Notes under the pieces: model-generated
What the model was told of the DNA's origin: nothing
Seen by the model: only the letters and a program-made list of their open reading frames with translations
Databases searched by the model: none
Virus record (IMG/VR): IMGVR_UViG_3300035682_000004
Direction: 5' to 3' (one strand)
DNA length: 64,000 bases
From: a virus
Part shown: positions 29,750 to 63,104 of the stretch, one piece after another
How the letters are laid out: the number at the start of each line of letters is the position of its first letter
Position numbering within the stretch: position 1 is the stretch's first letter
Made by a program: the position numbers and the translations under genes

Positions 29750-29989
29750 ATGAAAGACATTACAAGAATGCAACAATTAGCTGGTATAATTAAAGAAGAG
29801 CCAGAATCAGTTGACAGCACCTTGTTTAAACTTAAACAAGAATTCATGCCCGCTTTTGAACAATATGTTGATTTATATGAAATAGAAGTATTTGAAAATC
29901 CTAAAGACGATGAATATCAAAAAATACAAGAAGAATTCGCTAAACAATTAAAAGAAGTATTGTTTACATTACAACATGGAGAATTTTAA
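29750..29989 (+). CDS. Putative internal head protein, RMQQLAGII tag
   Basis: Leader matches the scaffold C-terminus; late promoter. Confidence 0.65.
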   Translation: MKDITRMQQLAGIIKEEPESVDSTLFKLKQEFMPAFEQYVDLYEIEVFENPKDDEYQKIQEEFAKQLKEVLFTLQHGEF

Positions 29990-30010
29990 AATATAAAATT
30001 ATATTAAGTT

Positions 30011-30035
30011 AAGCTTGGGAAACCAAGCTTTTTTT
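30011..30035 (+). terminator. Intrinsic terminator, overlapping a CTTG promoter variant for primase
   Basis: aagcttgg-gaaa-ccaagctt followed by a T-run. Confidence 0.8.
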
Positions 30036-30050
30036 GTTATAGTACAAGGT

Positions 30051-30980
30051 ATGGTAAATCAACTACTTGTAAATTTAGTAAACTCGGTTTTAGGCATTAG
30101 TAAATCTACATCAAAAGGCAACTACGCATATCATTGTCCTTTTTGTAATCACCATAAACCTAAGTTAGAAATCAATTTTACTGAATCAGATAAAAGTGAA
30201 AATCCATGGCATTGTTGGAGTTGTAATAAAAAAGGTAAATCATTAATTAATCTATTTAAAGCAATACATGCCGATCCTGATAAGTTAGCAGAACTAAGAC
30301 CATTAGTTAAGTACACATCAGGTGAAAAAATAGTACAAACTACAACTATTTTAAAATTACCTCAAGAATTTAAACCATTAGCTAATATATCTGATAGTAA
30401 TATCATAGGTAAACATGCTTTAAATTATATTAAAAAACGAGGTATAACAGAAGACGATATATTAAAATATAATATAGGTTATTGTGAGGGTGGTAAATTT
30501 AATAAAATGATTATTTTACCATCATATGATGCTACAGGTAAATTAAATTATTTTACTGCTCGTAATTTTGATAAAACATCAAGCCTTAAATATAAGAATC
30601 CAGATGTGTCACGTAACGTTATACCATTCGAACTGTTTATAAACTGGAATACACCGATTATACTGTGCGAAGGAATGTTTGACGCCATTGCTATTAAACG
30701 AAATGTTATACCGTTATTAGGCAAGAATATACAGTCTACGTTGATGTTAAAGCTAGTAGCATCATCAGTTAAGAAAATTTACGTAGCTTTAGATAGAGAC
30801 GCATTAAGAGAAGCATTACAATTTTGTGAACAATTAATAAATGAAGGCAAAGAAGTATATTTAGTAGATTTAGATGGTAAAGATCCAAGCGAATTAGGAT
30901 TTAGACATTTTACTGAATTGATACAGAACACCTATCCCCTAACCTTCTCAGGCTTACTTGAGAAAAAATTATCATTATGA
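30051..30980 (+). CDS. DNA primase (Zn finger plus TOPRIM)
   Basis: CPFC...HCWSC, LCEGMFDA, ALDRD, KDPSE; start corrected to ATG 30051. Confidence 0.9.
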   Translation: MVNQLLVNLVNSVLGISKSTSKGNYAYHCPFCNHHKPKLEINFTESDKSENPWHCWSCNKKGKSLINLFKAIHADPDKLAELRPLVKYTSGEKIVQTTTILKLPQEFKPLANISDSNIIGKHALNYIKKRGITEDDILKYNIGYCEGGKFNKMIILPSYDATGKLNYFTARNFDKTSSLKYKNPDVSRNVIPFELFINWNTPIILCEGMFDAIAIKRNVIPLLGKNIQSTLMLKLVASSVKKIYVALDRDALREALQFCEQLINEGKEVYLVDLDGKDPSELGFRHFTELIQNTYPLTFSGLLEKKLSL

Positions 30981-31765
30981 TAGAAAAAAATGTAAACATT
31001 AACAAAAAACACGTTAAACGTATTTTAGAAGCGGATGTAGATTCTAAACGAGTTAATATATTAGACAGTAGATTCTATAGTAGAAATGGAAATTATTATC
31101 CATCTGTTACTAATATATTGCAATTTATGCCAAAAAATAAATATTTTGAAAACTGGCTTAAAGATGTAGGACATAACGCAGATATTATTGCTCGTAGAGC
31201 AGCTGAAGAAGGTACTCAAGTACATGACGCTGCTGAAAGATATCTTAAAGGTGAAAAACTACAATGGTTTGATGAGAACGGAACATCTATTTATTCATTA
31301 GATGTATGGAAAATGATTTTAAAATTCCATGATTTTTGGAATACTTATAAACCAACATTAGTAGAAAGCGAAATCCATTTATTTTCAGATCAATTCATAT
31401 ACGCTGGTACTTGCGATTTAGTACTTGAAATTAATGGTGAAAAATGGATGGTAGATATTAAAACATCAAAATCATTACATACAAGTCAAGAATTACAATT
31501 AGCTGCTTACTCACAAGCGTGGAATGAAAATTTTGAAGAAAAAATAGAACGCGCAGGTATATTATGGTTAAAGTCAGCTAAACACGGTCCTGATAAAAAC
31601 AATAAAAAAATCCAAGGTAAAGGTTGGGAATTAGCAGAATCTGAGCGTAGCATTGAAGATAATTTAACATTATTTCATTCAATTCATAATTTATTTAAAT
31701 TAGAAAATCCAAATCCTCGCCCATCATCTGAACAGTATCCTACAGAAATTCAAATAGGAGTATAA
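30977..31765 (+). CDS. PD-(D/E)XK exonuclease
   Basis: YPSVT, GT.VH, E, AGTCD, DIKTS, QLAAY. Confidence 0.85.
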   Translation: MIEKNVNINKKHVKRILEADVDSKRVNILDSRFYSRNGNYYPSVTNILQFMPKNKYFENWLKDVGHNADIIARRAAEEGTQVHDAAERYLKGEKLQWFDENGTSIYSLDVWKMILKFHDFWNTYKPTLVESEIHLFSDQFIYAGTCDLVLEINGEKWMVDIKTSKSLHTSQELQLAAYSQAWNENFEEKIERAGILWLKSAKHGPDKNNKKIQGKGWELAESERSIEDNLTLFHSIHNLFKLENPNPRPSSEQYPTEIQIGV

Positions 31766-31793
31766 GTATTAATATTTATATATAAACATTAAG

Positions 31794-32774
31794 ATGATTT
31801 CTTTAATTGAGCTTTTAAAATCAATAACTTTAGAAGGTGGCAACGTATTTGGCACCACCTCACGTATTAAAAAGGAATATGTTCAACCAACTCTTAAAAA
31901 ATTTACCGCTGAATTAAGTAAAATATATCCAAAAGTAAAATTTAACTTTAATACTTTAGGATCAGCAGGCAAAAGCGAGGATTCAGGTGATATTGATTTA
32001 GGTATGAGTAGTGATCAATTTATAGATGAAAACGGTAATCCATTATTATCTAATTGGGGTATTGATAAAGTTGAATTTAATAGGTTATATGAAAAAATCA
32101 GAAAAAATGCAAAATCTGCAAAAGAAGCTCAAAGTAAATTAAGAGCTATGTTAGAATTAATAGCTATTGATATTGAAAAGAAATCAGATTATATAGATAC
32201 TAATTTAAAATCAGCGGGTAATGGCTCAATATTTTGCAATTTTCCTCAATATAATGAAAAAGGAGAAATACTTAATGATAAAGCAGTACAAATAGATATT
32301 AATGTAGGTGATTTAGATTGGTTAAATTTTAGTTACTATTCTAATACTATTAAAGATAATGTAAAAGGTTTACATAGAACTCAATTAATGGTAGCTATGT
32401 TTAAAGTATTAGATAAAATTTTTAGTCATGGTGTTGGTGTTAAAGATAAAACAACAAAAGAAATAGTAGCAACTAATCCTCAAGAAGCATTAGCTATATT
32501 AAATCAAGGATTTGGACTTAATTTATCTCAAGATGTATTAAATGATTATTTTGAATTAATGGAGGTTTTAAGACAAAGTGTTGAAAATAAAAAATTATCT
32601 GAAAAGACATTTAATCAAATATTAGATGTATATTTAAAAATATTAGACTCAACTAATAGAGCTGATATTCCTTTAGATCTTCAAGAATACTGGATTGCTA
32701 ATCAAAAGCGTTTAGATCTTAAAGGTAAATTACTACCAAAGGATTCTAACTTAATTAAATATAAAATAGCATAA
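31794..32774 (+). CDS. Pol-beta-superfamily nucleotidyltransferase with head-cargo leader
   Basis: LGSAGK..DSGDIDL...VQID; leader MISLIELLKSITLE. Confidence 0.75.
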   Translation: MISLIELLKSITLEGGNVFGTTSRIKKEYVQPTLKKFTAELSKIYPKVKFNFNTLGSAGKSEDSGDIDLGMSSDQFIDENGNPLLSNWGIDKVEFNRLYEKIRKNAKSAKEAQSKLRAMLELIAIDIEKKSDYIDTNLKSAGNGSIFCNFPQYNEKGEILNDKAVQIDINVGDLDWLNFSYYSNTIKDNVKGLHRTQLMVAMFKVLDKIFSHGVGVKDKTTKEIVATNPQEALAILNQGFGLNLSQDVLNDYFELMEVLRQSVENKKLSEKTFNQILDVYLKILDSTNRADIPLDLQEYWIANQKRLDLKGKLLPKDSNLIKYKIA

Positions 32775-35248
32775 TGTCAGGTTCAGCAGGTGGAAATAGA
32801 ATATCTAGGGCGGCGGTAGAAAAAACTGTTCAGGATTATATAGACAATGTATTATCTAAATTCCCTGGATTTAAGGACGCTAAGGCAACTGGTTCTTATA
32901 ACACAGGGACTAAACAAGATTTTGGTGATATTGATTTAATTGTTCATTTAGATAGTAAAGATAAAAAATTAGTTAAACAAGATTTAGCTAAATATTTTGC
33001 TTCTTTGCCCGATTCAGTTATTGTACCTTTTAAAAGTGATAAATATAAAGGAAAAAAATCACTTAGTAGTGGTGAATTAGTAACTGTATTATATCCTATA
33101 AGTGGTGTACCTGATGAATTTGTTCAAATAGATAACATTGTTTCTATTAGTGAAGAAGAATCAACATTTAAAAATACATTCTTAGACTACCCAGCTGAAG
33201 TACAAGGTTTACTTTTAGGTTTAGCTAAAGTAATTTGTTTAGAAGAAGATCCTAAAAAAATATTCGCTAGATTAGGTATTACTAATGTACCTGAACTTGA
33301 AGCAAATCAAGAATATGAATTCAATTTATCAAGCGCTGGATTAACATTACGTATAGTAACATTAGATAATTTTAAAGAACTTGATAGAACTGAGGTTTGG
33401 AAATCTTCAAATTGGAGTGTTGTTAAAAAATTATTCGACAATTACAATATAGATGGTGATTTTAAAACATTATTACAAGATTTAAAATCTAAATTAAAAA
33501 ACGAACGTTCTAAAAATAGAATAAAAGGTATATTTAAATCAATGGTATCTATTAAAAGTGGAGAAGTTGATACACCTAAAGGTGATAATAAACAAGCAGC
33601 ATTAGATGCTGTTAGTAGTTTATTAGAAAATAAATTATTTAAAGGATTAGTTAGAGAATTAATCTTGCCTTTAATTGAAGCAGATTCAAAGAAAACAGTA
33701 GCAATTTATCCAGGTGGTTTTAAACCACCTCATAAAGGTCATTTTAAAGCTGTTAAAATAGTATTAGAAAAATTTCCACAAATAAATAAATTTATTATTT
33801 ATGTCGGATCAGGAACAAGAAATGGAATTACTTCACTTGAATCAAAAGATATTTGGGAAATCTATGAAAAATATTTACCTTCAAACATAGAAATACAATT
33901 AACTAGTTCACCAGTTAAAGCAACTTATAAGTATGCTGAGACTCATCCTGATGAACATATAATATGGGTTGAAGGAGTTCGCCCAAACAATAGTAAAGAT
34001 TTAGCAGACATAGCGTCAAAAACAGGAGCTATAAGTGATTATAAAAATATTGAATTAGCTATTATTGATACTCAATTAGATGAAAGTGGAACAGACGCTC
34101 GTCAAGCATTAAAAAAAGGACAAGAAGCATTTTTGCCTTTTATTCCTGAAGAAGTAAAAGAAAAAACAAAAATATTTAATACTTTATCTAAAGTAGTTAC
34201 AGAACTAGTAACAAACACAAAAGTTATTTGTGATAAATGTGGTTGGACCTGGAAAATAGCTGATGGAGGTAAAGATTTATATATATGTCATAACAAATTA
34301 CCAGATGGTAGTATATGTGAACATGATAATAATCCTAATTTAAATGAAGGAACTTGTGATTATGATACAGATGTTAAAACAGGTAAAAAATTAGATACAC
34401 CTGGTGGATTAGAAGAAGGTAAGCAAGTTGGTCCTTTATATCACTACACATCAGCCGATGGATTAAAAGGCATCCTTCAGTCTAATAAAATAAATACCTC
34501 TGAAGAAAATTATTTAGGTAATGAATTATATTATATTTCATTTACTCGTAATAAAAATTTCTATAAAAAAGGATCTAATTTTGGAGTAAAAACAGATTAT
34601 AGAATTACATTAGATGGAGACAAATTATCTGACAAATATAAAATAACACCTTTTGCCTACAGACCGGGATGGAACTATGAAGACAATTGGGAATATAATT
34701 GGTTAGAAGATGAACCTGAAAGTGTAGTAAGAGATTTCTTTAATAATACTGGTGATTATGATGAACAAGAAGAAAGAATATCTTTTAAAGGTCCTGAAGA
34801 TGGAATTGATAACATAAAAAATTATATCTTAGCTGTTAATAAAGTAGAAGATTTAAAAGAAGGTAAAGAAAATAATGACTATAAAAAATATATTCCTGGA
34901 TTAACTAAATATATGATTGATCAAGGAATGAATATTAAACCATTACCTGTTGTTAAATTTATTAACAATGATAAAGCTAATGCTGAAAACGTATTTGGTA
35001 AAACAGCATTTTACAACCCAGAAGAAAAATCAATTACTTTATTTACTATGAATAGACATCCTAAAGATGTTTTACGTTCATTTTCACATGAAATGGTACA
35101 TCATATGCAAAATTTAGAAAATAGATTAAATAATATTAACACTACTAATACAAACGAAGACGGAGATTTACCTGAAATTGAAGAAGAAGCTTACAAATTA
35201 GGAAATATGATGTTACGTACATATGAAGACAGTAAAAAAAATAAATAA
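32774..35248 (+). CDS. Multidomain polyprotein: NTase, HxGH nucleotidylyltransferase, Zn finger, ART-like domain and zincin
   Basis: GSY..DFGDID..VQID; PGGFKPPHKGH; CDKC..C..C; LYHYT..ISFTR..EQEE; HEMVH. Confidence 0.7.
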   Translation: MSGSAGGNRISRAAVEKTVQDYIDNVLSKFPGFKDAKATGSYNTGTKQDFGDIDLIVHLDSKDKKLVKQDLAKYFASLPDSVIVPFKSDKYKGKKSLSSGELVTVLYPISGVPDEFVQIDNIVSISEEESTFKNTFLDYPAEVQGLLLGLAKVICLEEDPKKIFARLGITNVPELEANQEYEFNLSSAGLTLRIVTLDNFKELDRTEVWKSSNWSVVKKLFDNYNIDGDFKTLLQDLKSKLKNERSKNRIKGIFKSMVSIKSGEVDTPKGDNKQAALDAVSSLLENKLFKGLVRELILPLIEADSKKTVAIYPGGFKPPHKGHFKAVKIVLEKFPQINKFIIYVGSGTRNGITSLESKDIWEIYEKYLPSNIEIQLTSSPVKATYKYAETHPDEHIIWVEGVRPNNSKDLADIASKTGAISDYKNIELAIIDTQLDESGTDARQALKKGQEAFLPFIPEEVKEKTKIFNTLSKVVTELVTNTKVICDKCGWTWKIADGGKDLYICHNKLPDGSICEHDNNPNLNEGTCDYDTDVKTGKKLDTPGGLEEGKQVGPLYHYTSADGLKGILQSNKINTSEENYLGNELYYISFTRNKNFYKKGSNFGVKTDYRITLDGDKLSDKYKITPFAYRPGWNYEDNWEYNWLEDEPESVVRDFFNNTGDYDEQEERISFKGPEDGIDNIKNYILAVNKVEDLKEGKENNDYKKYIPGLTKYMIDQGMNIKPLPVVKFINNDKANAENVFGKTAFYNPEEKSITLFTMNRHPKDVLRSFSHEMVHHMQNLENRLNNINTTNTNEDGDLPEIEEEAYKLGNMMLRTYEDSKKNK

Positions 35249-35267
35249 AACAAAATAAAAAGATAAT

Positions 35268-35663
35268 ATGAAAAAATTAATTGACCTTTTAAGAGAAAAT
35301 TTGGAAGAAAAAACAATGGAAGTAAAAGAAGTTATCACTAAAGACTACGATGTGGTTGATGAAGTAGGTAAATTCTTTGTTGTTATTAAACCAGACACTA
35401 AATCAACTAAAGAAAATATTTTATTTGATGCTGATGCATTCAAATTTGCTGATAAAATTAAAGGCGGATTAAAATTTGAAAATGTATTAGGTATGTTCAA
35501 AAATAAATCAGACGCTAGTAGAACAGCAACTGAAGCTTTAAAAGCTCGTGATACCCAAATTGATGACTTAAAAACATCAATGGATGAATTTAGAACATCT
35601 AGAGAGGATATTAAAACTAAAAAAGAAAAAGCTCAAGAATTAATTAAAAAATTACAGCAGTAA
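35268..35663 (+). CDS. Putative head cargo protein (MKKLIDLLRE leader)
   Basis: Leader family. Confidence 0.6.
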   Translation: MKKLIDLLRENLEEKTMEVKEVITKDYDVVDEVGKFFVVIKPDTKSTKENILFDADAFKFADKIKGGLKFENVLGMFKNKSDASRTATEALKARDTQIDDLKTSMDEFRTSREDIKTKKEKAQELIKKLQQ

Positions 35664-35664
35664 T

Positions 35665-36621: not shown

Positions 36622-36624
36622 TAA

Positions 36625-38008: not shown

Positions 38009-38009
38009 C

Positions 38010-38674: not shown

Positions 38675-38705
38675 TACATATTTATAATATATAACTATAT
38701 AAAAC

Positions 38706-40052
38706 ATGAAACCAACATTAAATGAACAATTAGCTCGCATGCAAAAATTAGCGGGTATTATTAAAGAAAATCAATTAAACAAAGATCCAAAAGTAAGTTT
38801 TGGTAAATTTAAAAATGTTGAATACTATAAAGTAGATAATGAACTTTATTTAGTTGTTACTAACAGTGATAATTTTAAAGAAATAGAAAATTCTATGGAT
38901 TTTGGTGATAGAGATTATTTAAAAGATAAAGAAAAATCATTTTTAAATAATACAGTAGATAAATTAGCAGATGAAATGAGTAATTATTTAACTTCTATTG
39001 GAGTAAAAAATGAAGTAGGTGATAGTCCAATAGGATATGGTCAAGAAATTGATAATTTAATAGTTGTTATTAATCCAAATGATTTATCTAAATTAAATAA
39101 TACACAAATGAGCGAAGGTGAAGGTGCTTACGAATATGAAAAAGGTAAAGCAGCTGGTAAAAAAATTGAAAAAGAAAAGATGACTAAATCTAAACTTAAA
39201 GAGCAAATCAAAGAAATGATTTTAGCTGAATTAAATGAAGATTCTACAGAAGATGTTAATATCAATGACACTAGTAATGCTTACGATTTTAATGAATCAA
39301 AAATAGCTGAAGCAGAAGATGGTAATTACAAACTTTTAGATATAAATGATGTTGATCTTGGATCAATTGATGTAGAAGGTAATATATATGATACTGGTTA
39401 TATTTCTTCAGCTAAATTTAACAATGGTGACGAGCTTTCTCTTAACCAACGTGTAGAATTAGAAGATCTATTAGGTAAAGATGAAATAGCTAAATTAATT
39501 AACCTTAATGAAGCTAAAAAAGATAAAGAAGAAGTTGAAGATGTAACAGTAGATGATACTGAAGTAGTTGATGCTCCTGAATCAGATATGATGGCTGGTG
39601 AATCAGCTGAAGTATCAGGTATTCAAGCTAACTTACAAGCGGCATATGCTGAAGCAAAAGCATTAGGTGATGAAAAATTAATCACTCAAATTGCTAATAC
39701 AATTACTTATTTTACTAAAGCTCATATCTTAGATACAGCTCCAATTAATGAAGCTATAAATGATGATAGTGCTAATGCTATATATGATATTTTATCAAAC
39801 ATGGACAATGAAGACATAATAAATGATATGTTTACAGCAATACAGAAAAATCCAGAAATGAAATTAGAAGATTTCTTAAATCAGTATGATGCTGGAGACA
39901 ATCCAGGTGATGATAATGATGATAATTATGATGACAGTATGGATGTTTATGATGATAGTTATCCTAACATAGCTGAAGCTAAAAAAGCTAAAGGTAAATT
40001 AGATCAAATTAATGAAAATATGTTTCCAATGTTAAAAAGAATTTTAAGATAA
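38706..40052 (+). CDS. Acidic modular head polyprotein, RMQKLAGII tag
   Basis: Tag plus many (L/I)-x-E junctions; late promoter. Confidence 0.7.
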   Translation: MKPTLNEQLARMQKLAGIIKENQLNKDPKVSFGKFKNVEYYKVDNELYLVVTNSDNFKEIENSMDFGDRDYLKDKEKSFLNNTVDKLADEMSNYLTSIGVKNEVGDSPIGYGQEIDNLIVVINPNDLSKLNNTQMSEGEGAYEYEKGKAAGKKIEKEKMTKSKLKEQIKEMILAELNEDSTEDVNINDTSNAYDFNESKIAEAEDGNYKLLDINDVDLGSIDVEGNIYDTGYISSAKFNNGDELSLNQRVELEDLLGKDEIAKLINLNEAKKDKEEVEDVTVDDTEVVDAPESDMMAGESAEVSGIQANLQAAYAEAKALGDEKLITQIANTITYFTKAHILDTAPINEAINDDSANAIYDILSNMDNEDIINDMFTAIQKNPEMKLEDFLNQYDAGDNPGDDNDDNYDDSMDVYDDSYPNIAEAKKAKGKLDQINENMFPMLKRILR

Positions 40053-46116: not shown

Positions 46117-46551
46117 ATGAGTAACTTTGATTTAAGAAAGTATTTAGCTGAAGGTAAATTATATGAGGCTGCTATGGCTTGTCCTTTACCTACTCAAAAT
46201 TTAGAACTTAATACTAAAAATAGAGACTCAGCTATTAAAGCAGATTATATTAAATATGGTCCATTAAATGTTGATGAACCTGGAGACTTTTGGGATGAAT
46301 TAGCAGAACATTGGGACACAACAGTTGAAGCAGCTGAACAATCTTTATGTGGTAATTGTGCGGCTTTTGATATTTCTCCAAGAATGGAAGACTGTATGCC
46401 TGGCCCACTATCAGATGATGATGGTAGATTAGGATACTGTTGGATGCATAGTTTTAAATGTCACTCAGCTCGTACTTGTAGAACATGGGCTAAAGGAGGT
46501 CCTATAGTTAAAGATGTTATATCTTATGACTGGCAAGAACGTAAAGGATAA
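46117..46551 (+). CDS. Cys-rich metal-binding (HiPIP-like) protein, MSNFDLRKYLAE leader
   Basis: CGNC...GYC....KC....TC..W. Confidence 0.55.
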   Translation: MSNFDLRKYLAEGKLYEAAMACPLPTQNLELNTKNRDSAIKADYIKYGPLNVDEPGDFWDELAEHWDTTVEAAEQSLCGNCAAFDISPRMEDCMPGPLSDDDGRLGYCWMHSFKCHSARTCRTWAKGGPIVKDVISYDWQERKG

Positions 46552-47085: not shown

Positions 47086-47346
47086 ATGAGACCATACACT
47101 GACATAGAAGTTACAGATGAATATATTATTCGTGAATTTAATGAAAATATAGACCCAATTGAACTAATGTGGCATCGTGATGATGAAGATAGAACAGTTG
47201 AAGTAATAGGTAAAACAGATTGGCAATTACAACTTGAAAACCAATTGCCAACTTCTATAAATCAGCCCATATTTATACCAAGACACGAATGGCATAGAGC
47301 CATTAAAGGAACAGGAAATTTAAAATTAAAGATATATAAAAAATGA
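47086..47346 (+). CDS. Cupin-fold protein
   Basis: WHRD..DR...IFIP..EWHR.IKG. Confidence 0.7.
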   Translation: MRPYTDIEVTDEYIIREFNENIDPIELMWHRDDEDRTVEVIGKTDWQLQLENQLPTSINQPIFIPRHEWHRAIKGTGNLKLKIYKK

Positions 47347-47612
47347 AACCAACATTAAACGAACAATTTATCCGCATGCAAAAAATAGCAGGTGTAATTA
47401 ATGAAAACCAAATTAATGAAGATGATATATTTAATAATCAATATTCAGTTAGTAATGAAGCATATGGAATGATGGATAGTTTAGTTAATGAAAATGACTA
47501 TGATAACTTTATTCAATCCGCTACTAATATAATGACTACATTAACAGATAATGATTTTGAACCAAAAGACGTATTTTACTATCTTTACACTAGATTAACA
47601 GCTGAAGTATAA
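47343..47612 (+). CDS. Putative internal head protein, RMQKIAGVI tag
   Basis: Leader matches the scaffold C-terminus. Confidence 0.65.
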   Translation: MKPTLNEQFIRMQKIAGVINENQINEDDIFNNQYSVSNEAYGMMDSLVNENDYDNFIQSATNIMTTLTDNDFEPKDVFYYLYTRLTAEV

Positions 47613-47623
47613 TAATTAAACAT

Positions 47624-48673
47624 ATGAAACAACTATTAAACGAACAATTCCTTAGAATGCAAAAATTGGCAGGAATTATTACGGAAAATCAATATAGAAA
47701 AGTATTATTAACTGAAGTAACTGACCAGATATCAGGAAAAGATGGTGTTATTATTTTAGTATCAGATTATGCTAAAAAACATATTATGGAGCATAATAAA
47801 CCAGGTATGGGTTCAGTATTTAAAACTGGTGTTACTGAGGATGAAATAATAAATATGGTTAAAGAAGTAGCTCCTAAAGTATCAGGAGACGGTGGGGCCT
47901 ATGAATTAAATAAATCAAGTATAGGATATGATCTAGTTTTACCTATGGATAAAGCTAAAGCATTAAAAGACGCTAAAGAAGATGAAGTAGAAAAACAAGA
48001 AGGTCCTAATAAAGTAAAAGTTTCTTCAATTACAACATCACAACCTTTATCTGATTTTTCATCTAATAGAATATCATTAATTATTAGAAAATCTAACCCT
48101 CAGTTCTTACCTGATGATATTAAAACAGACACTGAAATAGCTAAAAAAATTGAAGAAGGTAAATGTTACTCATTATTAACCGCGTTTCCTGGTAATCCTG
48201 ATATTCCAAAAGCATCAGAATGGAATGGAAAATTTGCAATAATTATTCCTAGTGGAATTAAAGAAAACATGGATAATTGGGGAAATGAGACAGATGATCG
48301 TGGTGGAAATGAACAAGATTATAAACCAAAACCTAGCTTAGCTGATTTTGATTATAATAAAGAAGAGTATAAAAAATACATGGAAAAATACTTCCCAGAA
48401 GAACCATTAAATGAAGGAAGGCAATATTTTCATAATGGAGCTGAAATGAATCAAATTATTAATTATGATGATAGTGATATAATAGATGATCTAGAAGCAT
48501 TAGGCCAAGGATCAATGGATGGACAAGACTTTAAACCAGGAGAAACATATGATATTGGTGGAAATGAATACAAAATAGAATCTCAAGGAGATGAATTTAA
48601 ACTTGTATTAGCGGAATCAATTAATTCAATAGTAAATAAAGCTTTAAAATCTTATCGTAAATTAAATAACTAA
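47624..48673 (+). CDS. Putative internal head polyprotein, RMQKLAGII tag; first module possibly toxin RNase-like
   Basis: KHI..H...LTAFP pattern; LTE/IKE/LNE/LAE junctions. Confidence 0.6.
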   Translation: MKQLLNEQFLRMQKLAGIITENQYRKVLLTEVTDQISGKDGVIILVSDYAKKHIMEHNKPGMGSVFKTGVTEDEIINMVKEVAPKVSGDGGAYELNKSSIGYDLVLPMDKAKALKDAKEDEVEKQEGPNKVKVSSITTSQPLSDFSSNRISLIIRKSNPQFLPDDIKTDTEIAKKIEEGKCYSLLTAFPGNPDIPKASEWNGKFAIIIPSGIKENMDNWGNETDDRGGNEQDYKPKPSLADFDYNKEEYKKYMEKYFPEEPLNEGRQYFHNGAEMNQIINYDDSDIIDDLEALGQGSMDGQDFKPGETYDIGGNEYKIESQGDEFKLVLAESINSIVNKALKSYRKLNN

Positions 48674-51516: not shown

Positions 51517-51521
51517 ATTAT

Positions 51522-52356: not shown

Positions 52357-52377
52357 TATTTATCAGAAAAATATAAC

Positions 52378-55696: not shown

Positions 55697-55723
55697 TATT
55701 TATAATTAATAACATATAATAAA

Positions 55724-57601: not shown

Positions 57602-57636
57602 TAATCCTTATATATTTATAATAAAACACTTTAGGA

Positions 57637-58491
57637 ATGATTGTTAAACATTCAAAATACAAGAATACTGGCATTTTATTTGAGCTTTTAGTTAGACAAA
57701 TCACGTCTGATACATTGTCAGGCGTAGACTCAAAAGCGGCAACTATTCTAAAAAAACACTTTGTAAAAACAGAGTTAGGAAAAGAGTATAAGTTATATGA
57801 AACGTTGTTAAACAACATTAGACTAAGCGAAGGCAAAGCAGATATCATTATTAATACTTTATTAGAAAGTGGTAAATATTTAAACAGATCAGCATTACGT
57901 CGTCAAAAATATAATTTAATTAAAGAAATTAAAGCAAATTATAACGTTGATGAATTTTTTAAAACTAAACTCCCTAATTACAAAACACAAGCAGCGTTCT
58001 ATACATTATTAGAAATGTATGATGGTATTAACCAACCAGAAGCTAATCAAGTAATCTCAAATAAATTAATTCTATTAGAACATTTAACTTCAGCACCACT
58101 TACAACAGTTGCTAAAGATACATTAATGGAAGAATTTAAGTCATACGATAAAGATATTCGTATGTTAACTTATAGAGCGTTATTAGAAAAATTTAATTCT
58201 AAATACGCTAATTTAAATGAAGGACAAAAATCAGTATTAAAAGAATTTATCAATAGTGTTGATAATCCATCTAAATTAAAAGATTTTTACAATACTAAAG
58301 TAACAGAAATTAAATCTGACTTAACTAAATTAAATAAAAAAGTTAAAGACAAGACAACTCAAATTAAAATTAATGAGGTGTCTAATATTTTAGTTACATT
58401 AGAAAAAAATGACAAAATTAGTAATGATGATATGACTAATTTACTTCATTACTATGAATTACTAGAAGAATTACATAAAGTAAATGGATAA
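57637..58491 (+). CDS. Conserved head-assembly protein
   Basis: KHSKYKNTGILFELL; located between portal and protease; late promoter. Confidence 0.6.
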   Translation: MIVKHSKYKNTGILFELLVRQITSDTLSGVDSKAATILKKHFVKTELGKEYKLYETLLNNIRLSEGKADIIINTLLESGKYLNRSALRRQKYNLIKEIKANYNVDEFFKTKLPNYKTQAAFYTLLEMYDGINQPEANQVISNKLILLEHLTSAPLTTVAKDTLMEEFKSYDKDIRMLTYRALLEKFNSKYANLNEGQKSVLKEFINSVDNPSKLKDFYNTKVTEIKSDLTKLNKKVKDKTTQIKINEVSNILVTLEKNDKISNDDMTNLLHYYELLEELHKVNG

Positions 58492-59029
58492 TTTAAAACG
58501 TATTATTAAAGATACATTAAAAAAGATATCTGAAGAGTCAGGCACAGGAGGTGGAGCATCAGCTGGTGCTTTTAGCCCAGGTGAAGGACCACAAACAGCA
58601 GAAAAAGTAAAAAAAGAAGGAACCGATGCTGCTTATAAAAAAAATACTAATTCTAAAGGTACAACAAATAATATTTATGTTAAAAACTTTAAATATAAGT
58701 TAGTTAACCAAAAAGCATTAAATAAACAGGCAAAGGGAATTGAAGTTAAACAAATGTGGAAAGAAAATGTAAACGAAGCACAATTAGATGTAGACGCTTA
58801 TATTGATTCTTTAAACATAGATAAACCAGAATTAAAAACATTTATCAAATCTAGATTAGAAGGATTTGATACATTAGAACAAAAATTAAACGAATTATTA
58901 CCATTATTACAAAACGCAAAACAAAAAACATTAGATTACTATAAAAATAATCCTAATTTTAATGTATTATATGGTACTGATTTAGCAAACGATTATTTAA
59001 ACGACTTAATAAACTTATTTAAAGACTAA
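58484..59029 (+). CDS. Head-associated protein (MDNLKRIIKD leader)
   Basis: ISE| and VNE| junctions. Confidence 0.55.
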   Translation: MDNLKRIIKDTLKKISEESGTGGGASAGAFSPGEGPQTAEKVKKEGTDAAYKKNTNSKGTTNNIYVKNFKYKLVNQKALNKQAKGIEVKQMWKENVNEAQLDVDAYIDSLNIDKPELKTFIKSRLEGFDTLEQKLNELLPLLQNAKQKTLDYYKNNPNFNVLYGTDLANDYLNDLINLFKD

Positions 59030-59030
59030 T

Positions 59031-59255
59031 ATGGCAAATATACCTGTTAACACAACCGGAATAGTAACTACAACATCAATCACTGGTTCATACGCTGGCT
59101 TTACAGTAGTATCAGGCTCAGCTACCTTCACTGGTATAAAAGATTTTAATGGAAATTCATTAACAACTCCTTGGGTTGTACCTGCAGGATTTACTGTACC
59201 TATTTATGTAACTAGCGCTTCTTTATCTTCAGGAGCAGTATTATTTTACAATTAA
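59031..59255 (+). CDS. Small Ser/Thr/Gly-rich beta protein (candidate capsid decoration)
   Basis: 74 aa, almost uncharged; TGS, SGS and SAS motifs. Confidence 0.55.
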   Translation: MANIPVNTTGIVTTTSITGSYAGFTVVSGSATFTGIKDFNGNSLTTPWVVPAGFTVPIYVTSASLSSGAVLFYN

Positions 59256-59268
59256 TAACTCATTATAA

Positions 59269-60636
59269 ATGAAAACATTACAAGAACAATACATCCTTAT
59301 TAAAGAAGGAAAAGGAAATAAAGATCATTTCTTAAAACAAGCAAAAAATCTATTTCCTGAATATATTAATCAGTATTCTAGCTACGATTCTACAGTAAGT
59401 GTACTTAAATCAAAAAGTATCTTAAGTGAAGGTATTGGTGGTGTGATTAGTCACAAACCATCTCCATCATGGTTAGAAATATTTAGAGAAAATACAAATA
59501 ATGAAGCAGTAGATATGACTTCAGCTCCTTCTGGTCCATTTGGAGATGCTATAGGTTGGATATCACGAAGTAATGAGTATGGTAAAAACTTATTAATGAG
59601 TAACGGTATTACTAAAGCGGATGACGCTATTATTTTATTTAAAGCACTTAAATCCGGAAAAATTACAGAAGAAAATCTTAGTAAGGTTATAATGGCTGGT
59701 GGAAAGAGATTTACTGATACTGAAACATGGATAAAAGATATGAAACCTCTTTTAAAAAAGGCTAATGAACCAAATACAGTGAAAGAAGGTAATAATCTTA
59801 GTGTTAAATTAAGTGATGGTTCTGAAATCCAAAAAGGTAGTAAAGCTAAAATAAATGACGAAGTAGTAACAATTGTAAATATTACTAAAGTTGGTAACCT
59901 TAAGCATATTACAGGTAAAACTAAAGATGGTAGAGAATTATTAGCAAAAGGTAGTGCTTATGTATCTTCATATGACTCTAAAGAAGAAAATCTATCAGAA
60001 GTTATTGGTGTTCCAAATAGAAAAACATACGGTGACTATGATGAGTTTGCAAAACCATCTAAACAAGTTCAAAAAGATTTAGCTGATCAATTTGATAATG
60101 AAGATAAGAAAAATATTGACAATGTTTATGGTACATCTTTCTTAAATGGCTACTATGCTGAAATGAAAGATCCTAAAAACAAAACTAAAACAGTAGACGA
60201 ATTAAAACAAATTGTACTTAAAAACATGGTTAAAGACATAAACTATTATGCTAAAAATGCTATGTTTGGAACTAAAGGAGTAGGATTTAAAACTGAAAAA
60301 TTAACAATTGCACCTAAAGGTAAATATAAGTCAAGCGGATATGGTGATTTACCTAAAACTAAAACTATTAAAGAAAGTATCCATGACCTAGATATATTAT
60401 TAAGACCTCTTTCAAACCCAGATTTTCCACCATTAACGCGATCACCTGAAGAGTTAGGTAAAGAGGCAGATAATAGATCTGAAAACATGTTGTTAATGAA
60501 ATACCAAAAGCAAATTAATGATCGTAATATAACAGATGATGAATTGAGAGATATATTAAGTGGTCAAGGTGTTAAGGGATTTGGAGGAAGAAAAAATGCA
60601 ATTGAAAAAATTATAAGTAATAGAAATACAAATTAA
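59269..60636 (+). CDS. Modular head-associated protein
   Basis: LSE/NNE/VKE/LSE/IKE junctions. Confidence 0.55.
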   Translation: MKTLQEQYILIKEGKGNKDHFLKQAKNLFPEYINQYSSYDSTVSVLKSKSILSEGIGGVISHKPSPSWLEIFRENTNNEAVDMTSAPSGPFGDAIGWISRSNEYGKNLLMSNGITKADDAIILFKALKSGKITEENLSKVIMAGGKRFTDTETWIKDMKPLLKKANEPNTVKEGNNLSVKLSDGSEIQKGSKAKINDEVVTIVNITKVGNLKHITGKTKDGRELLAKGSAYVSSYDSKEENLSEVIGVPNRKTYGDYDEFAKPSKQVQKDLADQFDNEDKKNIDNVYGTSFLNGYYAEMKDPKNKTKTVDELKQIVLKNMVKDINYYAKNAMFGTKGVGFKTEKLTIAPKGKYKSSGYGDLPKTKTIKESIHDLDILLRPLSNPDFPPLTRSPEELGKEADNRSENMLLMKYQKQINDRNITDDELRDILSGQGVKGFGGRKNAIEKIISNRNTN

Positions 60637-60642
60637 CGTAAT

Positions 60643-61248
60643 ATGAGACAAGTATTAATTGAAACACAATTATTCTCACCCAAAGCTGTTAGCTTAACTG
60701 AAGGAACTAATCCTGGAGGTAACCTATTAGTAAAAGGTGTATTAGCTACTGTCGAAGTAAAAAACGGTAATGGTAGATATTACGCTAAAGAATTATGGGA
60801 ACGTGAAATGGATCGCTACATGGAATCAATTCGTGAGAATAGAGCTTTAGGTGAATTAGACCACCCAGATTCTTCAATTATTAACTTAAAAAATGTTTCA
60901 CATAATATTAAAAAATGCTGGTGGGATGGAAATAATGTAATGGGTATGATTGAAATCTTACCTACTCCATCTGGTAACATTTTAAAAGCATTAATCGATA
61001 GTGGTATTACAGTAGGTGTATCATCAAGAGGAATGGGTTCATTAGAACAAAAAGGTAATGTAATGGAAGTACAAGATGACTTTGAATTACTATGTTGGGA
61101 TTTCGTTTCAACACCTTCTAATCCGGGTTCATGGATGCTACCAACTAGCTTAAATGAATCATATATTCCTAGTATAAATCAATACAGTAAAATTAATTCA
61201 ATTATTACTGATATTTTATGTGCTAATGGATCATGTCCGTTATTCTAA
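60643..61248 (+). CDS. gp21: Prohead core protease, T4 gp21-like
   Basis: KNGNGRYY, ALGELDHP, VSH, GVSSRGMGS, DFVSTPS. Confidence 0.95.
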   Translation: MRQVLIETQLFSPKAVSLTEGTNPGGNLLVKGVLATVEVKNGNGRYYAKELWEREMDRYMESIRENRALGELDHPDSSIINLKNVSHNIKKCWWDGNNVMGMIEILPTPSGNILKALIDSGITVGVSSRGMGSLEQKGNVMEVQDDFELLCWDFVSTPSNPGSWMLPTSLNESYIPSINQYSKINSIITDILCANGSCPLF

Positions 61249-61249
61249 C

Positions 61250-61843
61250 ATGAAAAATTTATTTCTAGTAATATTAATTTGTCTATCAACAGTAGTTTTT
61301 GGACAAACTAAATTAAGAGATAGTGTTAACTATCAAACTCCTAACTTCCGTATTGTTTATTCTGAAATTTTAGAACAACCTAAATGGGTTACCTACACAG
61401 TTAAATGTCCTACAGGTACTGCTTCTAGAGCAAGTATGGAATTCTACACAGACAAAAATATTAAAACATCTGATAACGAAGATTATGTTAATAATGAATG
61501 GGATAAAGGACATATTGCTCCTGCTGCTTCATTTAATTGTACTAAAGAAATGTTATACTCAACATTTACCTATATTAACTCAGCAATGCAACAACAATCA
61601 CTTAATCGTGGTCCTTGGAAAACATTAGAAATATGGGAACGTGAACAAGCTAAAACTACAACAGTATCAGTATATGTTAGATTAGATTATGATAAAGTAC
61701 CTAAACGTGTACCTACAAACGCGGCGATACCTAAAGGATTTTATAAAGAATTAAAAGTAGGTAATACTAAGTATTGTTATTATTTTCCTAACATCGCCCC
61801 TACATCAAAAGACTTAAATACGTTTAAGTGCAATTGTAAATAA
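61250..61843 (+). CDS. Secreted DNA/RNA non-specific endonuclease (beta-beta-alpha-Me)
   Basis: Signal peptide MKNLFLVILICLSTVVFG; WDKGHIAPA, N...Q...LNRG.W..LE, IPKGFYK. Confidence 0.85.
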   Translation: MKNLFLVILICLSTVVFGQTKLRDSVNYQTPNFRIVYSEILEQPKWVTYTVKCPTGTASRASMEFYTDKNIKTSDNEDYVNNEWDKGHIAPAASFNCTKEMLYSTFTYINSAMQQQSLNRGPWKTLEIWEREQAKTTTVSVYVRLDYDKVPKRVPTNAAIPKGFYKELKVGNTKYCYYFPNIAPTSKDLNTFKCNCK

Positions 61844-61918
61844 AACATGGCTCTTCCAAAAGAAGAGCTTTTTCTTTGCACTTCTGTGCATTTTTAGAAA
61901 ATCCGGACATATGTATAT

Positions 61919-61990
61919 TAGAATATACTGCCCGCAATCGCATTTGCAGTATCTATAAATAACAATTCTATTACACTTCAAATAAGTGTA
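61919..61990 (+). promoter_or_regulatory. Structured 5' leader of the scaffold/capsid operon
   Basis: tagaat/attcta enclosing atactgc/gcagtat, then tacactt/aagtgta; follows ATATGTATA at 61909. Confidence 0.55.
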
Positions 61991-62015
61991 TTTCCCAAAC
62001 AAAATTTTAGGACAA

Positions 62016-63104
62016 ATGAGTAAAAACAGAGATTTGCTTAAAGAAGCAATCGAAGATGCTAAAGTTGTTAAAGAAACAGCAATAGCAAGCGCAAAAGCTG
62101 CTCTTGAAGAACACTTTACTCCACAATTAAAATCTATGCTATCAGCTAAACTTGCAGAAATGGAAGAAAAGGAAGAGGCAGAAATGGACGATAATATGGA
62201 AGAAATGTATTCTAAAAAAGATGAAAACTTAATGGGCTACAAACCAGTTAAAAAAGAAGAAATTGAGTATGATCACGGTAACATCGACACAGAAGAAGGT
62301 AACCCGTTAGATGAACTTAATCTTGAAGAATTATTAGCTGAATTAGAAGAAGACATGGAAAAAGAATCCGCGTATGAAGCTAAAGAAGACGACAAAATGA
62401 AGAAAGAAGAATTAAACGAAGCAGAAGGTGAAGAAGAAGTTGAAACTGAAGAAGAAATCAACATCGAGGACATGACTGAAGAAGAGTTAAAATCATTCAT
62501 TGAAGACGTAATTAAAGACATGGTTGAAGCTGGTGAATTAGAAGCTGGTGAAGGCATGGAAGACATGAAAGGTGAAGAAGGTGAAGAAATGGAAAGTGAA
62601 GAAGAAGAAATTTCAATTGATGAAATTTTAGCTGAAATCGAATTAGATGAAGCTAAAAGAAAAAAACTAATTAAATCAAAAGACGAAGACAAAAAAGACA
62701 AAGAAGACGAAGAAGACAAAAAAGAAATCAAAAAACTTAAAAATGAGTTAGAAGAAGCTATGTCTACTATTTCTACTATGAGATCTGATATCAATGAAGT
62801 TAATTTGTTAAATGCGAAATTACTTTACACTAACAAAATTTTCAAAGCTAAAAACTTAACCGAGTCACAAAAAGTAAAGGTTTTAAATGCATTTGATAAA
62901 GCATCAACAGTAAAAGAAACTAAATTAGTATTCGAAACATTATCAGAAGGATTAAAAGAAACTTCTAAATCACATGTTAATGAATCATTAAAAACTAGTT
63001 TAGCATCTAAAACAACAGGTATCATGCCAACAGCAAGAAAGCCTATTGTAGAAGTTAATGACACATTCAAAAGAATGCAAAAAATAGCAGGAATTATTAA
63101 ATAA
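62016..63104 (+). CDS. Prohead scaffold protein
   Basis: Very acidic coiled coil between protease and MCP; LLKEAI.DAK, EVNLLNAKLLY.NK; start corrected to 62016. Confidence 0.85.
   Translation: MSKNRDLLKEAIEDAKVVKETAIASAKAALEEHFTPQLKSMLSAKLAEMEEKEEAEMDDNMEEMYSKKDENLMGYKPVKKEEIEYDHGNIDTEEGNPLDELNLEELLAELEEDMEKESAYEAKEDDKMKKEELNEAEGEEEVETEEEINIEDMTEEELKSFIEDVIKDMVEAGELEAGEGMEDMKGEEGEEMESEEEEISIDEILAEIELDEAKRKKLIKSKDEDKKDKEDEEDKKEIKKLKNELEEAMSTISTMRSDINEVNLLNAKLLYTNKIFKAKNLTESQKVKVLNAFDKASTVKETKLVFETLSEGLKETSKSHVNESLKTSLASKTTGIMPTARKPIVEVNDTFKRMQKIAGIIK

What the first reader, a model, noticed from the sequence alone, without database searches (positions are those of the whole stretch)
29750..63104. 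Scaffold-mimic address tags: cargo proteins begin with the scaffold's own C-terminal peptide
Seen: the scaffold ends FKRMQKIAGIIK*. Four otherwise unrelated late proteins start with the same peptide followed by I-x-E: 29750 RMQQLAGIIKE, 38706 RMQKLAGIIKE, 47343 RMQKIAGVINE and 47624 RMQKLAGIITE. The 38706 and 47343 leaders are also similar at DNA level (atgaaaccaacattaaa.gaacaatt....cgcatgcaaaaa.tagc.ggt). Known: scaffold C-termini bind coat protein in P22 and herpesviruses. T4 gp21 cleaves after (L/I)-x-E, and T4 internal proteins use a short cleaved capsid-targeting sequence. Inference: a portable tag that docks any payload on the scaffold's coat-binding site, is clipped at maturation, and doubles as a recombination anchor for swapping payloads. 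This would be a programmable protein-injection system.
Basis: partly seen in the sequence, partly recalled or inferred. Interest (0 to 1): 0.9.

Follow-up and report, generated by a model that had tools for sequence, protein, structure and literature searches.

The report
Cargo tags copying the scaffold tail
In this uncultured T4-like phage, four unrelated proteins begin with a copy of the short peptide that ends the head-scaffold protein, each followed by a head-protease cut site; this is most likely a clip-off label that loads them into the capsid, and the same label sits on over two thousand protein groups in related phages, but no experiment shows loading yet.

Summary
The peptide RMQ[KQ][IL]AG[IV]I occurs five times in the six-frame translation, against 0 in shuffles. 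Four are at the N-termini of ORFs 29750, 38706, 47343 and 47624. One is the very C-terminus of the gp22-like scaffold (62016-63104), which lies between a gp21-type protease and gp23.

The window is a 29% GC T4-like myophage related to Flavobacterium phage immuto.

The motif is a conserved scaffold tail in a large uncultured clade. I found 83 M-type and 94 W-type tails in IMG/VR.

- The tail is a predicted terminal helix plus GIIK "hook" on a disordered tether.
- An [ILV]xE protease site sits exactly 7 residues upstream in 66 of 83 tails.
- In cargo the same peptide is N-terminal, sometimes C-terminal or internal, and the cut site always lies between anchor and body.
- A tag profile hits 2187 protein clusters.

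One payload family carries this tag, a T4-CTS-like leader or a third leader, exchanged exactly at the predicted cut. Tagged loci are replaced between near-identical relatives.

Best reading: a T4-CTS-like prohead-loading tag that mimics the scaffold's capsid-docking helix-and-hook, as CpmB mimics the 80alpha scaffold. Binding partner, packaging, cleavage and injection are untested, and residue-level co-variation is not strict.

The scan has already noted this on other genomes.

The parts
62016..63104 (+). gp22-like head scaffold protein (362 aa from ATG 62016; the ORF listing starts it at GTG 61986)
   Evidence: Lies between the S77 protease and gp23. Acidic and rich in [LI]xE sites. N-terminus MSKNRDLLKEAIEDAK resembles T4 gp22 MLKEQLIAEAQK. 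C-terminal 115 aa are conserved in 76 IMG/VR scaffolds (A2).
63054..63101 (+). Scaffold tail VNDTFKRMQKIAGIIK: the anchor peptide (predicted helix plus GIIK hook), released by the IVE site at 63045-63053
   Evidence: The AlphaFold model of A2 shows a 3-helix domain, a disordered linker of about 36 residues, a terminal helix at 102-111 and then GIIK. An [ILV]xE site lies exactly 7 aa before the M in 66 of 83 tails.
29750..29797 (+). Tag MKDITRMQQLAGIIKE of the 79-aa ORF 29750-29989 (payload 63 aa, pI 4.3)
   Evidence: The whole ORF is absent from near relative G001.
38706..38768 (+). Tag MKPTLNEQLARMQKLAGIIKE of the 448-aa ORF 38706-40052 (payload pI 4.2)
   Evidence: The G001 homolog has identical tag DNA, then a 104-aa insertion directly after the tag.
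47343..47405 (+). Tag MKPTLNEQFIRMQKIAGVINE of the 89-aa ORF 47343-47612 (payload pI 4.1)
   Evidence: Homology to G001 ends 28 nt into this ORF.
47624..47686 (+). Tag MKQLLNEQFLRMQKLAGIITE of the 349-aa ORF 47624-48673. The payload core (about residues 30-210) folds with pLDDT above 90 and resembles BECR-type RNase toxins (lead only).
60643..61248 (+). gp21-type prohead serine protease, the presumed enzyme cutting after [LIV]-x-E
   Evidence: Pfam Peptidase_S77 E 4.9e-30; phrog_207 E 9.8e-57.
63132..63998 (+). gp23-like major capsid protein (3' end outside the window), the candidate receptor of the anchor. Its N-terminal propeptide has four invariant L-x-E glutamates.
   Evidence: Pfam Gp23 E 2.3e-12. 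In the alignment of 44 MCPs, E9, E35, E50 and E59 are invariant.

Best explanation
The scaffold of this phage clade ends in a tethered docking peptide. It is an amphipathic basic helix (xNDxFxR-M/W-QKLA) followed by a short hook (GII, usually +K), joined to the scaffold body by a disordered linker that carries a prohead-protease site ([ILV]-x-E). Cargo proteins carry a copy of this peptide, usually at the N-terminus and followed at once by I-x-E. I infer that the copy docks cargo inside the assembling prohead at the site the scaffold tail uses. By analogy with the 80alpha scaffold/CpmB helix-and-hook, that site is most likely the inner face or N-arm of the gp23-like capsid protein. When the gp21-type protease is activated it would cut between anchor and body in both scaffold and cargo. 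The scaffold fragments and anchor peptides would then leave, and the free payloads would stay in the head, possibly to be ejected with the DNA as T4 internal proteins are.

Shown here: the shared motif, its wide conservation, the cut-site geometry, its portability, and payload turnover.

Inferred: docking in the prohead (about 0.75), cleavage after Glu (about 0.7), the receptor being the capsid protein rather than the scaffold core (about 0.5), and injection (about 0.4).
For: (1) The motif occurs five times in the window and 0 times in shuffles.

(2) The IMG/VR scan for the M-type motif gave 83 scaffold C-termini (43 directly followed by a full gp23-like gene), 29 N-terminal leaders and 9 internal copies. 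The W-type scan (RWQKLAG) gave 94 tails and about 17 leaders. The same DNA pattern in 596 Gb of bacterial genomes gave 1 tail or tag context in the 120 listed hits.

(3) Cut-site geometry. An [ILV]xE site lies exactly 7 aa upstream of the M in 66 of 83 tails and within 4-7 aa in 80 of 83. Tails end II or IIK in 77 of 83. 27 of 29 leaders continue [IV]-I-x-E. Among the best 149 profile hits, 150 of 152 non-terminal motifs are followed by x-E. R at -1 and E at +9 were not imposed by the search pattern and use several synonymous codons, so selection acts on the peptide.

(4) Portability. The tag profile finds 2187 clusters at E<=1e-3 in 1.84 billion representatives. 105 payloads fall into 55 unrelated groups.

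(5) Interchangeable leaders on one payload family, joined at the predicted cut: P0049 ..RWQKLANILTE|AVEVP.. against P0052 MIKLLDLLKE|AVEVP.., with a third leader on P0047 and anchors at both ends of P0025.

(6) Head context. In L281 a tagged payload sits between the S77 protease and the scaffold.

(7) Predicted structure of the scaffold C-terminus: a 3-helix domain, a disordered linker of about 36 residues with the IVE site, a terminal 10-residue helix and then GIIK. This matches the 80alpha scaffold's '11-residue amphipathic helix followed by a 5-residue hook' with its RIIK motif, which is seen bound to the capsid protein N-arm and is copied by CpmB (PMC5644958). The 80alpha scaffold ends ..NLAEIARQKRIIKN.

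(8) The phage encodes a gp21-type protease. T4 gp21 cuts after L/I-x-E, and 10-19-residue N-terminal CTS propeptides load T4 internal proteins (PMC9026906).

(9) Tagged loci are hypervariable between the window and G001.
Against: There is no virion proteomics, N-terminal sequencing or binding data for any member of the clade; the only cultured carriers are the immuto phages. Residue-level co-variation between tail and tags is not strict. Complete or large genomes such as G002, Mel-JY01 and LR756508 have the tail and no tags, so the tags are an optional add-on. In N-terminal tags the hook is not at a free C-terminus, unlike in the scaffold. The T4 literature places CTS affinity in the core, not the shell. 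The protease specificity is inferred from family membership and conserved sites, not measured. The window's class-B payloads are acidic, unlike the basic T4 internal proteins.
Confidence: 0.6

Rival explanations
1. The anchor binds the scaffold core, not the capsid shell. The basic amphipathic tail helix would mediate scaffold-scaffold or scaffold-acidic-region contacts, and tagged cargo would co-assemble into the core as T4 CTS proteins are thought to do. The clip-off logic stays the same; only the receptor differs.
For: The T4 literature describes CTS propeptides as having affinity for the core, and internal proteins co-purify with gp22 (PMC9026906). The tail is basic (K/R at four positions) and the scaffold middle is 29% acidic.
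Against: Solved examples of scaffold C-terminal helices bind capsid protein (80alpha SP and CpmB, PMC5644958). The tether-plus-terminal-helix layout is what is seen for shell-docking tails. Nothing here tests self-binding.
Confidence: 0.22
2. The motif is a recognition or docking element for the prohead protease (an exosite that makes the adjacent Glu site cleavable, or that recruits or activates the protease), not an address tag.
For: The motif is always next to an [ILV]xE site. The protease gene is adjacent to the scaffold, and in L281 adjacent to a tagged gene.
Against: The cut site lies upstream of the motif in scaffolds (7 aa) and downstream in cargo (2 aa). This is hard to reconcile with one enzyme-substrate geometry but is as expected for an anchor to be severed from its body. 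The scaffold and MCP propeptide have many other [LI]xE sites without the motif.
Confidence: 0.08
3. The shared leader is a by-product of cassette-like gene mobility (a portable promoter, ribosome-binding-site and start region used for recombination), and the peptide itself has no role.
For: The 38706 and 47343 leaders and their upstream bases are alike at the DNA level. Homology breakpoints with G001 fall at the tags.
Against: Conservation is at the amino-acid level, with free synonymous change across hundreds of loci. The same peptide occurs at C-termini and inside proteins, where no start region is needed. It is identical to a conserved functional end of the scaffold.
Confidence: 0.05

Closest known systems
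Phage T4 capsid targeting sequence (CTS) of internal proteins IPI, IPII, IPIII and Alt, removed by gp21 (Mullaney and Black 1996, as reviewed in PMC9026906 and PMC5694885)
   Same: A short N-terminal leader on unrelated proteins that ends in L/I-x-E, in a phage with a gp21-type protease. Hypervariable payload genes. The window also has T4-like 10-residue leaders (MIKLINLLKE and similar) on five other ORFs, and one payload family uses either leader type.
   Different: The sequence is unrelated to MKTYQEFIAE and about twice as long (16-22 aa). It is a copy of the scaffold's C-terminal tail. It also works at C-terminal and internal positions. It sits on over 2000 protein clusters. What the T4 CTS binds is not known, whereas this tag points to a specific site.
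Helix-and-hook (RIIK) C-terminal motif of the Staphylococcus phage 80alpha scaffold and its mimic CpmB of SaPI1 (PMC5644958; PDB 6B0X, 6B23)
   Same: The scaffold ends in an amphipathic helix of about 11 residues plus a hook ending I-I-K, on a flexible tether. A second, unrelated protein carries the same motif and uses the scaffold's site on the capsid protein. The hydrophobic spacing (L194/I197 ... I203 I204 K205 against F/M ... I I K) lines up.
   Different: There is no detectable sequence homology and the phage family is different. CpmB is a satellite's alternative scaffold that changes capsid size, not cargo. 80alpha processing is by a host-type Prp enzyme at N-termini, not a gp21 cut next to the anchor. 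Binding is solved there and only inferred here.
Herpesvirus and lambda/P2-type nested protease-scaffold genes that share one C-terminal capsid-binding tail, cut off at maturation (established knowledge, not checked with tools here)
   Same: A non-scaffold protein enters the procapsid by carrying the scaffold's C-terminal tail. A maturation cleavage just upstream of the tail releases the scaffold from the shell.
   Different: There the sharing comes from in-frame nested genes and concerns only the protease. Here the peptide has been transplanted, mostly to N-termini, onto thousands of unrelated proteins. The window's protease lacks the tail (ends ..CANGSCPLF).
Encapsulin cargo-loading peptides and engineered P22 scaffold-fusion cargo loading (PMC9962691)
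   Same: A short terminal peptide, or a scaffold C-terminal fragment, suffices to load arbitrary cargo inside an HK97-fold shell. The P22 system is a man-made version of what this phage appears to do naturally.
   Different: Encapsulin peptides are not removed and no scaffold exists. P22 fusions are artificial and are not clipped by a protease.

Membership tests
T4-type capsid targeting propeptide (CTS) | Short N-terminal leader shared by otherwise unrelated proteins of one phage | tested here: met
   Four ORFs share only residues 1-26. 55 unrelated payload groups were found among 105 tagged proteins.
T4-type capsid targeting propeptide (CTS) | Leader ends in the L/I-x-E motif cut by a gp21-family protease encoded by the phage | tested here: met
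   IKE, IKE, INE and ITE in the window; 27 of 29 and 150 of 152 elsewhere. Peptidase_S77 lies at 60643-61248. Cleavage itself is not testable here.
T4-type capsid targeting propeptide (CTS) | Leader is sufficient to load a protein into the prohead and is removed there | not testable with these tools
   Needs virion proteomics or a tag-reporter packaging assay.
T4-type capsid targeting propeptide (CTS) | Sequence likeness to the T4 CTS MKTYQEFIAE | tested here: not met
   The RMQKLAGII tag has no likeness to it. Other leaders in the window do (MIKLINLLKE; MKTLQEQYILIKEG at 59269).
Scaffold C-terminal helix-and-hook capsid-docking motif (80alpha SP / CpmB type) | Terminal amphipathic helix plus short hook ending I-I-K, on a flexible tether at the scaffold C-terminus | tested here: met
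   The AlphaFold model of A2 has helix 102-111, then GIIK, with linker 66-101 at low pLDDT. Tails end II or IIK in 77 of 83. The 80alpha SP ends ..IARQKRIIKN.
Scaffold C-terminal helix-and-hook capsid-docking motif (80alpha SP / CpmB type) | Motif binds the capsid protein (N-arm helix and the A/P-domain cleft) | not tested
   Needs cryo-EM of uncleaved proheads or peptide-binding assays.
Scaffold C-terminal helix-and-hook capsid-docking motif (80alpha SP / CpmB type) | Sequence homology to 80alpha SP/CpmB | tested here: not met
   Profile and peptide searches of PDB sequences do not recover 6B0X or 6B23 chains. The likeness is of pattern only.
T4 gp22-like scaffolding core protein | Gene between the prohead protease and the major capsid protein; acidic, helical, rich in L/I-x-E sites | tested here: met
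   Synteny. 29% Asp+Glu and 17 [LI]xE sites, 4.6 per 100 aa against a median of 1.3.
T4 gp22-like scaffolding core protein | Detectable sequence similarity to T4 gp22 | tested here: inconclusive
   BLASTP E 0.16 over LNxxxxYxN..K(N/D)LTESQKxKV. The N-termini are alike. No Pfam or PHROG hit.

The most novel reading that the evidence does not exclude
A very abundant clade of aquatic T4-like phages runs a natural, modular cargo-loading code. Any protein that acquires the scaffold's 15-residue capsid-docking helix-and-hook, at either end or inside and bracketed by protease sites, is loaded into the prohead in competition with the scaffold, is freed by the head protease and is delivered to the host with the DNA. 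The more than 2000 tagged protein clusters, including BECR-type RNase-like and small acidic proteins, would then be a large unexplored repertoire of injected host-takeover or anti-defence effectors. The tag would also identify the long-unknown receptor of CTS-type signals.
Probability: 0.4. Interest if true: 0.8.

Novelty: new variant of a known kind. Interest (0 to 1): 0.65.

Why it matters
How T4-type heads choose their protein contents is still unresolved: the T4 CTS works, but its receptor is unknown. Here the tag is a recognisable copy of a defined scaffold element, which makes the question directly testable by peptide competition, cryo-EM of protease-dead proheads, and tag-reporter packaging in the cultured immuto phage. 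It also gives a simple sequence rule for listing candidate packaged or injected proteins, over 2000 clusters and almost all without annotation, in a clade common in marine and freshwater viromes. Finally it offers a natural counterpart to engineered scaffold-fusion cargo loading.

Tried and rejected
(1) Complex prediction. I ran the capsid protein (A1, 558 aa, 43-row alignment) with the scaffold tail (A2 residues 72-115). The score was 0.00 and the verdict was 'no answer'. It is neither support nor evidence against. A monomeric MCP may not present the site.

(2) Fold searches.
- Foldseek of the scaffold C-terminal model against PDB gave only generic three-helix bundles, with no E<=0.001.
- Foldseek of the 47624 payload model against PDB gave nothing at E<=0.001. 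The VIA wide search gave only moderate matches to BECR toxins, Z 4-6.8, which I keep as a lead.

(3) Sequence searches.
- Profile and peptide searches of PDB sequences did not find 80alpha SP/CpmB or any scaffold.
- Pfam and PHROGs gave no family for the four tagged proteins or the scaffold.
- Among 149 tagged representatives only 7 had any Pfam hit.
- megablast of the head region against cultured phages found no match. Short-peptide tblastn found only immuto and, for the tail, Mel-JY01.

(4) Literature. Full-text search for MQKLAGI, MQQLAGI, MQKIAGI and QKLAGII returned 0 papers.

(5) T4 late-promoter box. TATAAATA is not enriched (32 against 28.5 expected), so 'late' genes is not shown.

(6) Strict tail-tag co-variation was rejected.
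- W/W pairs: L281 and G010.
- W tail with M tags: immuto.
- M tail with W tag: the L057/L344 contig.
- F tail with M tags: G003.
- Mixed tags in one genome: G013.

(7) The whole genome of the window is not held, and relatives cannot be drawn for virus records.


Full report
**What the window is.** All genes run on the + strand and G+C is 29%. The 3' part holds a T4-type head module:
- terminase and portal-region ORFs;
- a Peptidase_S77/gp21-like protease (60643-61248; Pfam E 4.9e-30, phrog_207 E 9.8e-57);
- an Endonuclease_NS gene (61220-61843);
- a 362-aa acidic protein (62016-63104);
- the start of a gp23-like major capsid protein (63132-; Pfam Gp23 E 2.3e-12).

The nearest cultured relative is Flavobacterium phage vB_FspM_immuto, with 56% identity over parts of the scaffold. 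No cultured phage matches at the DNA level. Two IMG/VR contigs, G001 (74 kb) and G005 (64 kb), are about 92% identical to the window.

MQ[KQ][IL]AG[IV]I occurs five times in the six-frame translation and never in 200 shuffles. Four copies are in the N-terminal 16-21 residues of ORFs 29750, 38706, 47343 and 47624, each followed by I-x-E. One is the last 12 residues of the protein between protease and capsid gene.

The four proteins have no other similarity and no Pfam or PHROG family. The DNA-level likeness of the 38706 and 47343 leaders is real.

The 62016-63104 protein is a gp22-type scaffold on these grounds:
- synteny with the T4 and immuto head modules;
- 29% acidic residues;
- an [LI]xE density 3.6 times the window median;
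- an N-terminus like that of T4 gp22;
- a weak local match to T4 gp22.

**The motif is first of all a conserved scaffold tail.** Of the 121 matches:
- 83 are the C-terminus of a 320-500-aa ORF, which in 43 cases is followed within 200 nt by a complete gp23-like gene;
- 29 are N-terminal leaders;
- 9 are internal.

A second scan for RWQKLAG gave 94 more scaffold tails and about 17 leaders, some on contigs of 200-300 kb.

As a control I ran the first pattern over 596 Gb of bacterial genomes, where about 150 chance hits are expected. It gave one scaffold tail among 120 listed hits, on a probable phage contig in a MAG.

Several genomes have the tail and no tags: Microcystis phage Mel-JY01 (..ERMKKLAGIVK), a 484-kb uncultured phage (..SRMQKLADIS), and the complete 166-kb contig G002. 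So the tail is the ancestral feature and the tags are a derived copy, which justifies 'scaffold mimic'.

**Anatomy of the anchor.** In 66 of 83 tails an [ILV]-x-E site lies exactly 7 residues before the Met, and in 80 of 83 it lies within 4-7 residues. In the window this reads KPIVE|VNDTFKRMQKIAGIIK. 77 of 83 tails end in II or IIK. 27 of 29 leaders continue [IV]-I-x-E.

Arg at -1 (83 of 83 tails) and Glu at +9 (35 of 38 tags) were not imposed by the search pattern. They are encoded by several synonymous codons, as are L, A, G and I within the motif, so selection acts on the peptide.

The cut site therefore always lies between anchor and body. It is upstream in the scaffold, downstream in N-terminal tags, and on both sides of internal copies.

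An AlphaFold model of the last 115 scaffold residues (76-row alignment, mean pLDDT 79) shows:
- a confident three-helix domain;
- a disordered linker of about 36 residues that carries the IVE site;
- a 10-residue terminal helix (DTFKRMQKIA);
- a non-helical GIIK end.

[quoted passage not shown] The satellite protein CpmB carries the same C-terminal motif and competes for the same site (PMC5644958). The 80alpha scaffold ends ..NLAEIARQKRIIKN. Aligned from the end with ..NDTFKRMQKIAGIIK, the I-I-K hook and the two upstream hydrophobic contact positions coincide.

This is a likeness of pattern and predicted shape, not detectable homology. It makes the capsid protein the most likely receptor. My one complex prediction (MCP monomer plus tail) gave no answer (see Tried and rejected).

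**Portability.** A profile of 30 N-terminal tags, searched against 1.84 billion cluster representatives, gave 2187 proteins at E<=1e-3 and 85 at E<=1e-10. Of the best 149:
- 144 carry the tag at residues 1-30;
- 150 of 152 non-terminal motifs are followed by x-E;
- 105 payloads of at least 60 residues fall into 55 unrelated BLASTP groups;
- only seven have any Pfam family (TnsA-like endonuclease N, HD, MlaD, PBECR4, DUF6576, AHD).

Homologs of the 47624 payload are the most telling. The same domain is preceded by different leaders in different phages:
- the M-type tag (P0002, P0003, P0016, P0027);
- a W/N variant (P0049, P0101: MTQLINEAKRWQKLANILTE);
- a T4-CTS-like 10-mer (P0052: MIKLLDLLKE);
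- a third leader (P0047: MDNFDLRKYLAENRLLKE);
- anchors at both ends (P0025).

P0049 and P0052 share the payload start AVEVP.. immediately after ..ILTE and ..LLKE. The modules are therefore joined exactly at the predicted cleavage site, and the scaffold-tail tag is interchangeable with a T4-type CTS. I regard this as the best indirect evidence that it is a prohead-loading propeptide.

In contig L281 such a tagged payload lies inside the head operon, between the S77 protease and the scaffold.

**Payload turnover.** Against G001, homology is interrupted precisely at the tag genes:
- ORF 29750 is absent from G001.
- The 38706 homolog has identical tag DNA and then a 104-aa insertion.
- Window 47371-48658 (two tagged genes) is replaced by three other genes. 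One is a 371-aa frame with a class-A-like N-terminus (VKQSELKQLIKEVKKE, GTG start) and a C-terminal anchor (..INESLSLEFIRMQKLAGI*). The other two are different N-tagged proteins.

This parallels the hyperplastic internal-protein loci of T-even phages mentioned in PMC9026906.

| Genome | Scaffold tail | Tags | Match at M/W/F position |
|---|---|---|---|
| L281 | RWQMLAGITKY | RWQKLANILIE | yes |
| G010 | RWQMLAGIKKH | RWQKLAGILVE | yes |
| immuto | RWQKLAGIIK | RMQ[FK]LAGIITE | no |
| L057/L344 (one contig) | RMQKLAGIIK | RWQKLAGILKE | no |
| G003 | RFQKLAGIK | MQKLAGIITE | no |

G013 mixes M and W tags in one genome. M, W and F at that position look interchangeable. The receptor is presumably as conserved as the capsid protein, which shows 54-70% identity to the window-type capsid protein across the 42 more distant MCPs in the alignment.

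**What the payloads may be.** The window's four class-B payloads are acidic, with pI 4.1-4.8. Two are only 63 and 68 residues with net charge about -10.

The 47624 core domain models well (residues 30-210, pLDDT above 90). In a Foldseek-independent search it resembles BECR-fold RNase toxins: CdiA-CT domains, RelE/ParE, colicin D, BrnT and T4 RegB, with Z 4-6.8 and rmsd about 4 Å. Language-model leads point the same way, to RNAse_A_bac, EndoU and PBECR2.

These Z values are in the range where chance arrangements occur, so this is a lead, not an assignment.

**Verdict.** The finding is a real and widespread feature. It is best filed as a new variant of the T4 capsid-targeting principle, in which the address tag is a transplanted copy of the scaffold's tethered helix-and-hook tail.

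What is new relative to the literature I could search (no paper contains the motif) is:
- the identity of tag and scaffold tail;
- the cut-site logic;
- the positional flexibility;
- the scale.

Nothing about binding, packaging, cleavage or injection has been shown. Earlier notes of this scan describe the same idea on other genomes. My tests here were made independently on this window and its relatives.

Noticed in passing
window 31794, 35268, 44745, 45794, 46551 (ORF starts): A second leader class. Five other unrelated ORFs start M-x-x-L-I-x-L-L-x-E (MIKLINLLKE, MINLIQLLTE, MKKLIDLLRE, MIKLINLLTE, MISLIELLKS). This resembles the T4 gp24 propeptide MAKINELLRE and the N-terminus of this clade's capsid protein (M.IN.LLES). 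It is probably a T4-type CTS, so the phage seems to use at least two tag types.
   Followed up: partly
window 46117-46551: A third leader, MSNFDLRKYLAEGKL. The same leader precedes homologs of the 47624 payload in other phages (P0047, P0075).
   Followed up: partly
window 59269-60636: A 455-aa protein just upstream of the protease begins MKTLQEQYILIKEG, close to the T4 CTS MKTYQEFIAE. Its counterpart in L281 (6139-7767) carries Pfam DUF5661. It is possibly a core or internal head protein.
   Followed up: no
window 61220-61843: A DNA/RNA non-specific endonuclease (Pfam E 3.6e-23) with a signal-peptide-like N-terminus (MKNLFLVILICLSTVVFGQ) sits between the prohead protease and the scaffold. This is the slot where relative L281 has a tagged payload. 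It carries no tag.
   Followed up: no
window 32774-35248: An 824-aa protein with a weak, below-cut-off match to the ADP-ribosyltransferase family Tox-ART-HYD1 (E 4.5e-4, 21.2 bits against cut-off 25). T4 packages the ADP-ribosyltransferase Alt, so this may be worth a fold.
   Followed up: no
window 63132-63310 and alignment A1: The capsid protein propeptide has four invariant glutamates in L-x-E context (E9, E35, E50, E59) across 44 relatives. It also has a KW.K..LLEG motif shared with T4 gp23 (LLNKWKPLLEGEG). This is consistent with multi-site cleavage by a T4-type protease.
   Followed up: partly
proteins P0242, P0244, P0247: Proteins of 870-1005 aa carry the tag at the N-terminus and again about 25-95 residues before the C-terminus, each followed by x-E, as if a large cargo were anchored at both ends.
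   Followed up: no
window 5596-9160: A cluster of six tRNA genes: Ser-AGA, Thr-TGT, Met-CAT, Ser-TGA, Gln-TTG and Glu-TTC (anticodons).
   Followed up: no
L125 (T4) 8118-8160 and 11324-11353: T4's own scaffold starts MLKEQLIAE, close to the CTS MKTYQEFIAE, and T4 gp24 starts MAKINELLRE. So copying of head-protein termini by cargo leaders may also apply to T4, at the scaffold's N-terminus rather than its C-terminus.
   Followed up: no
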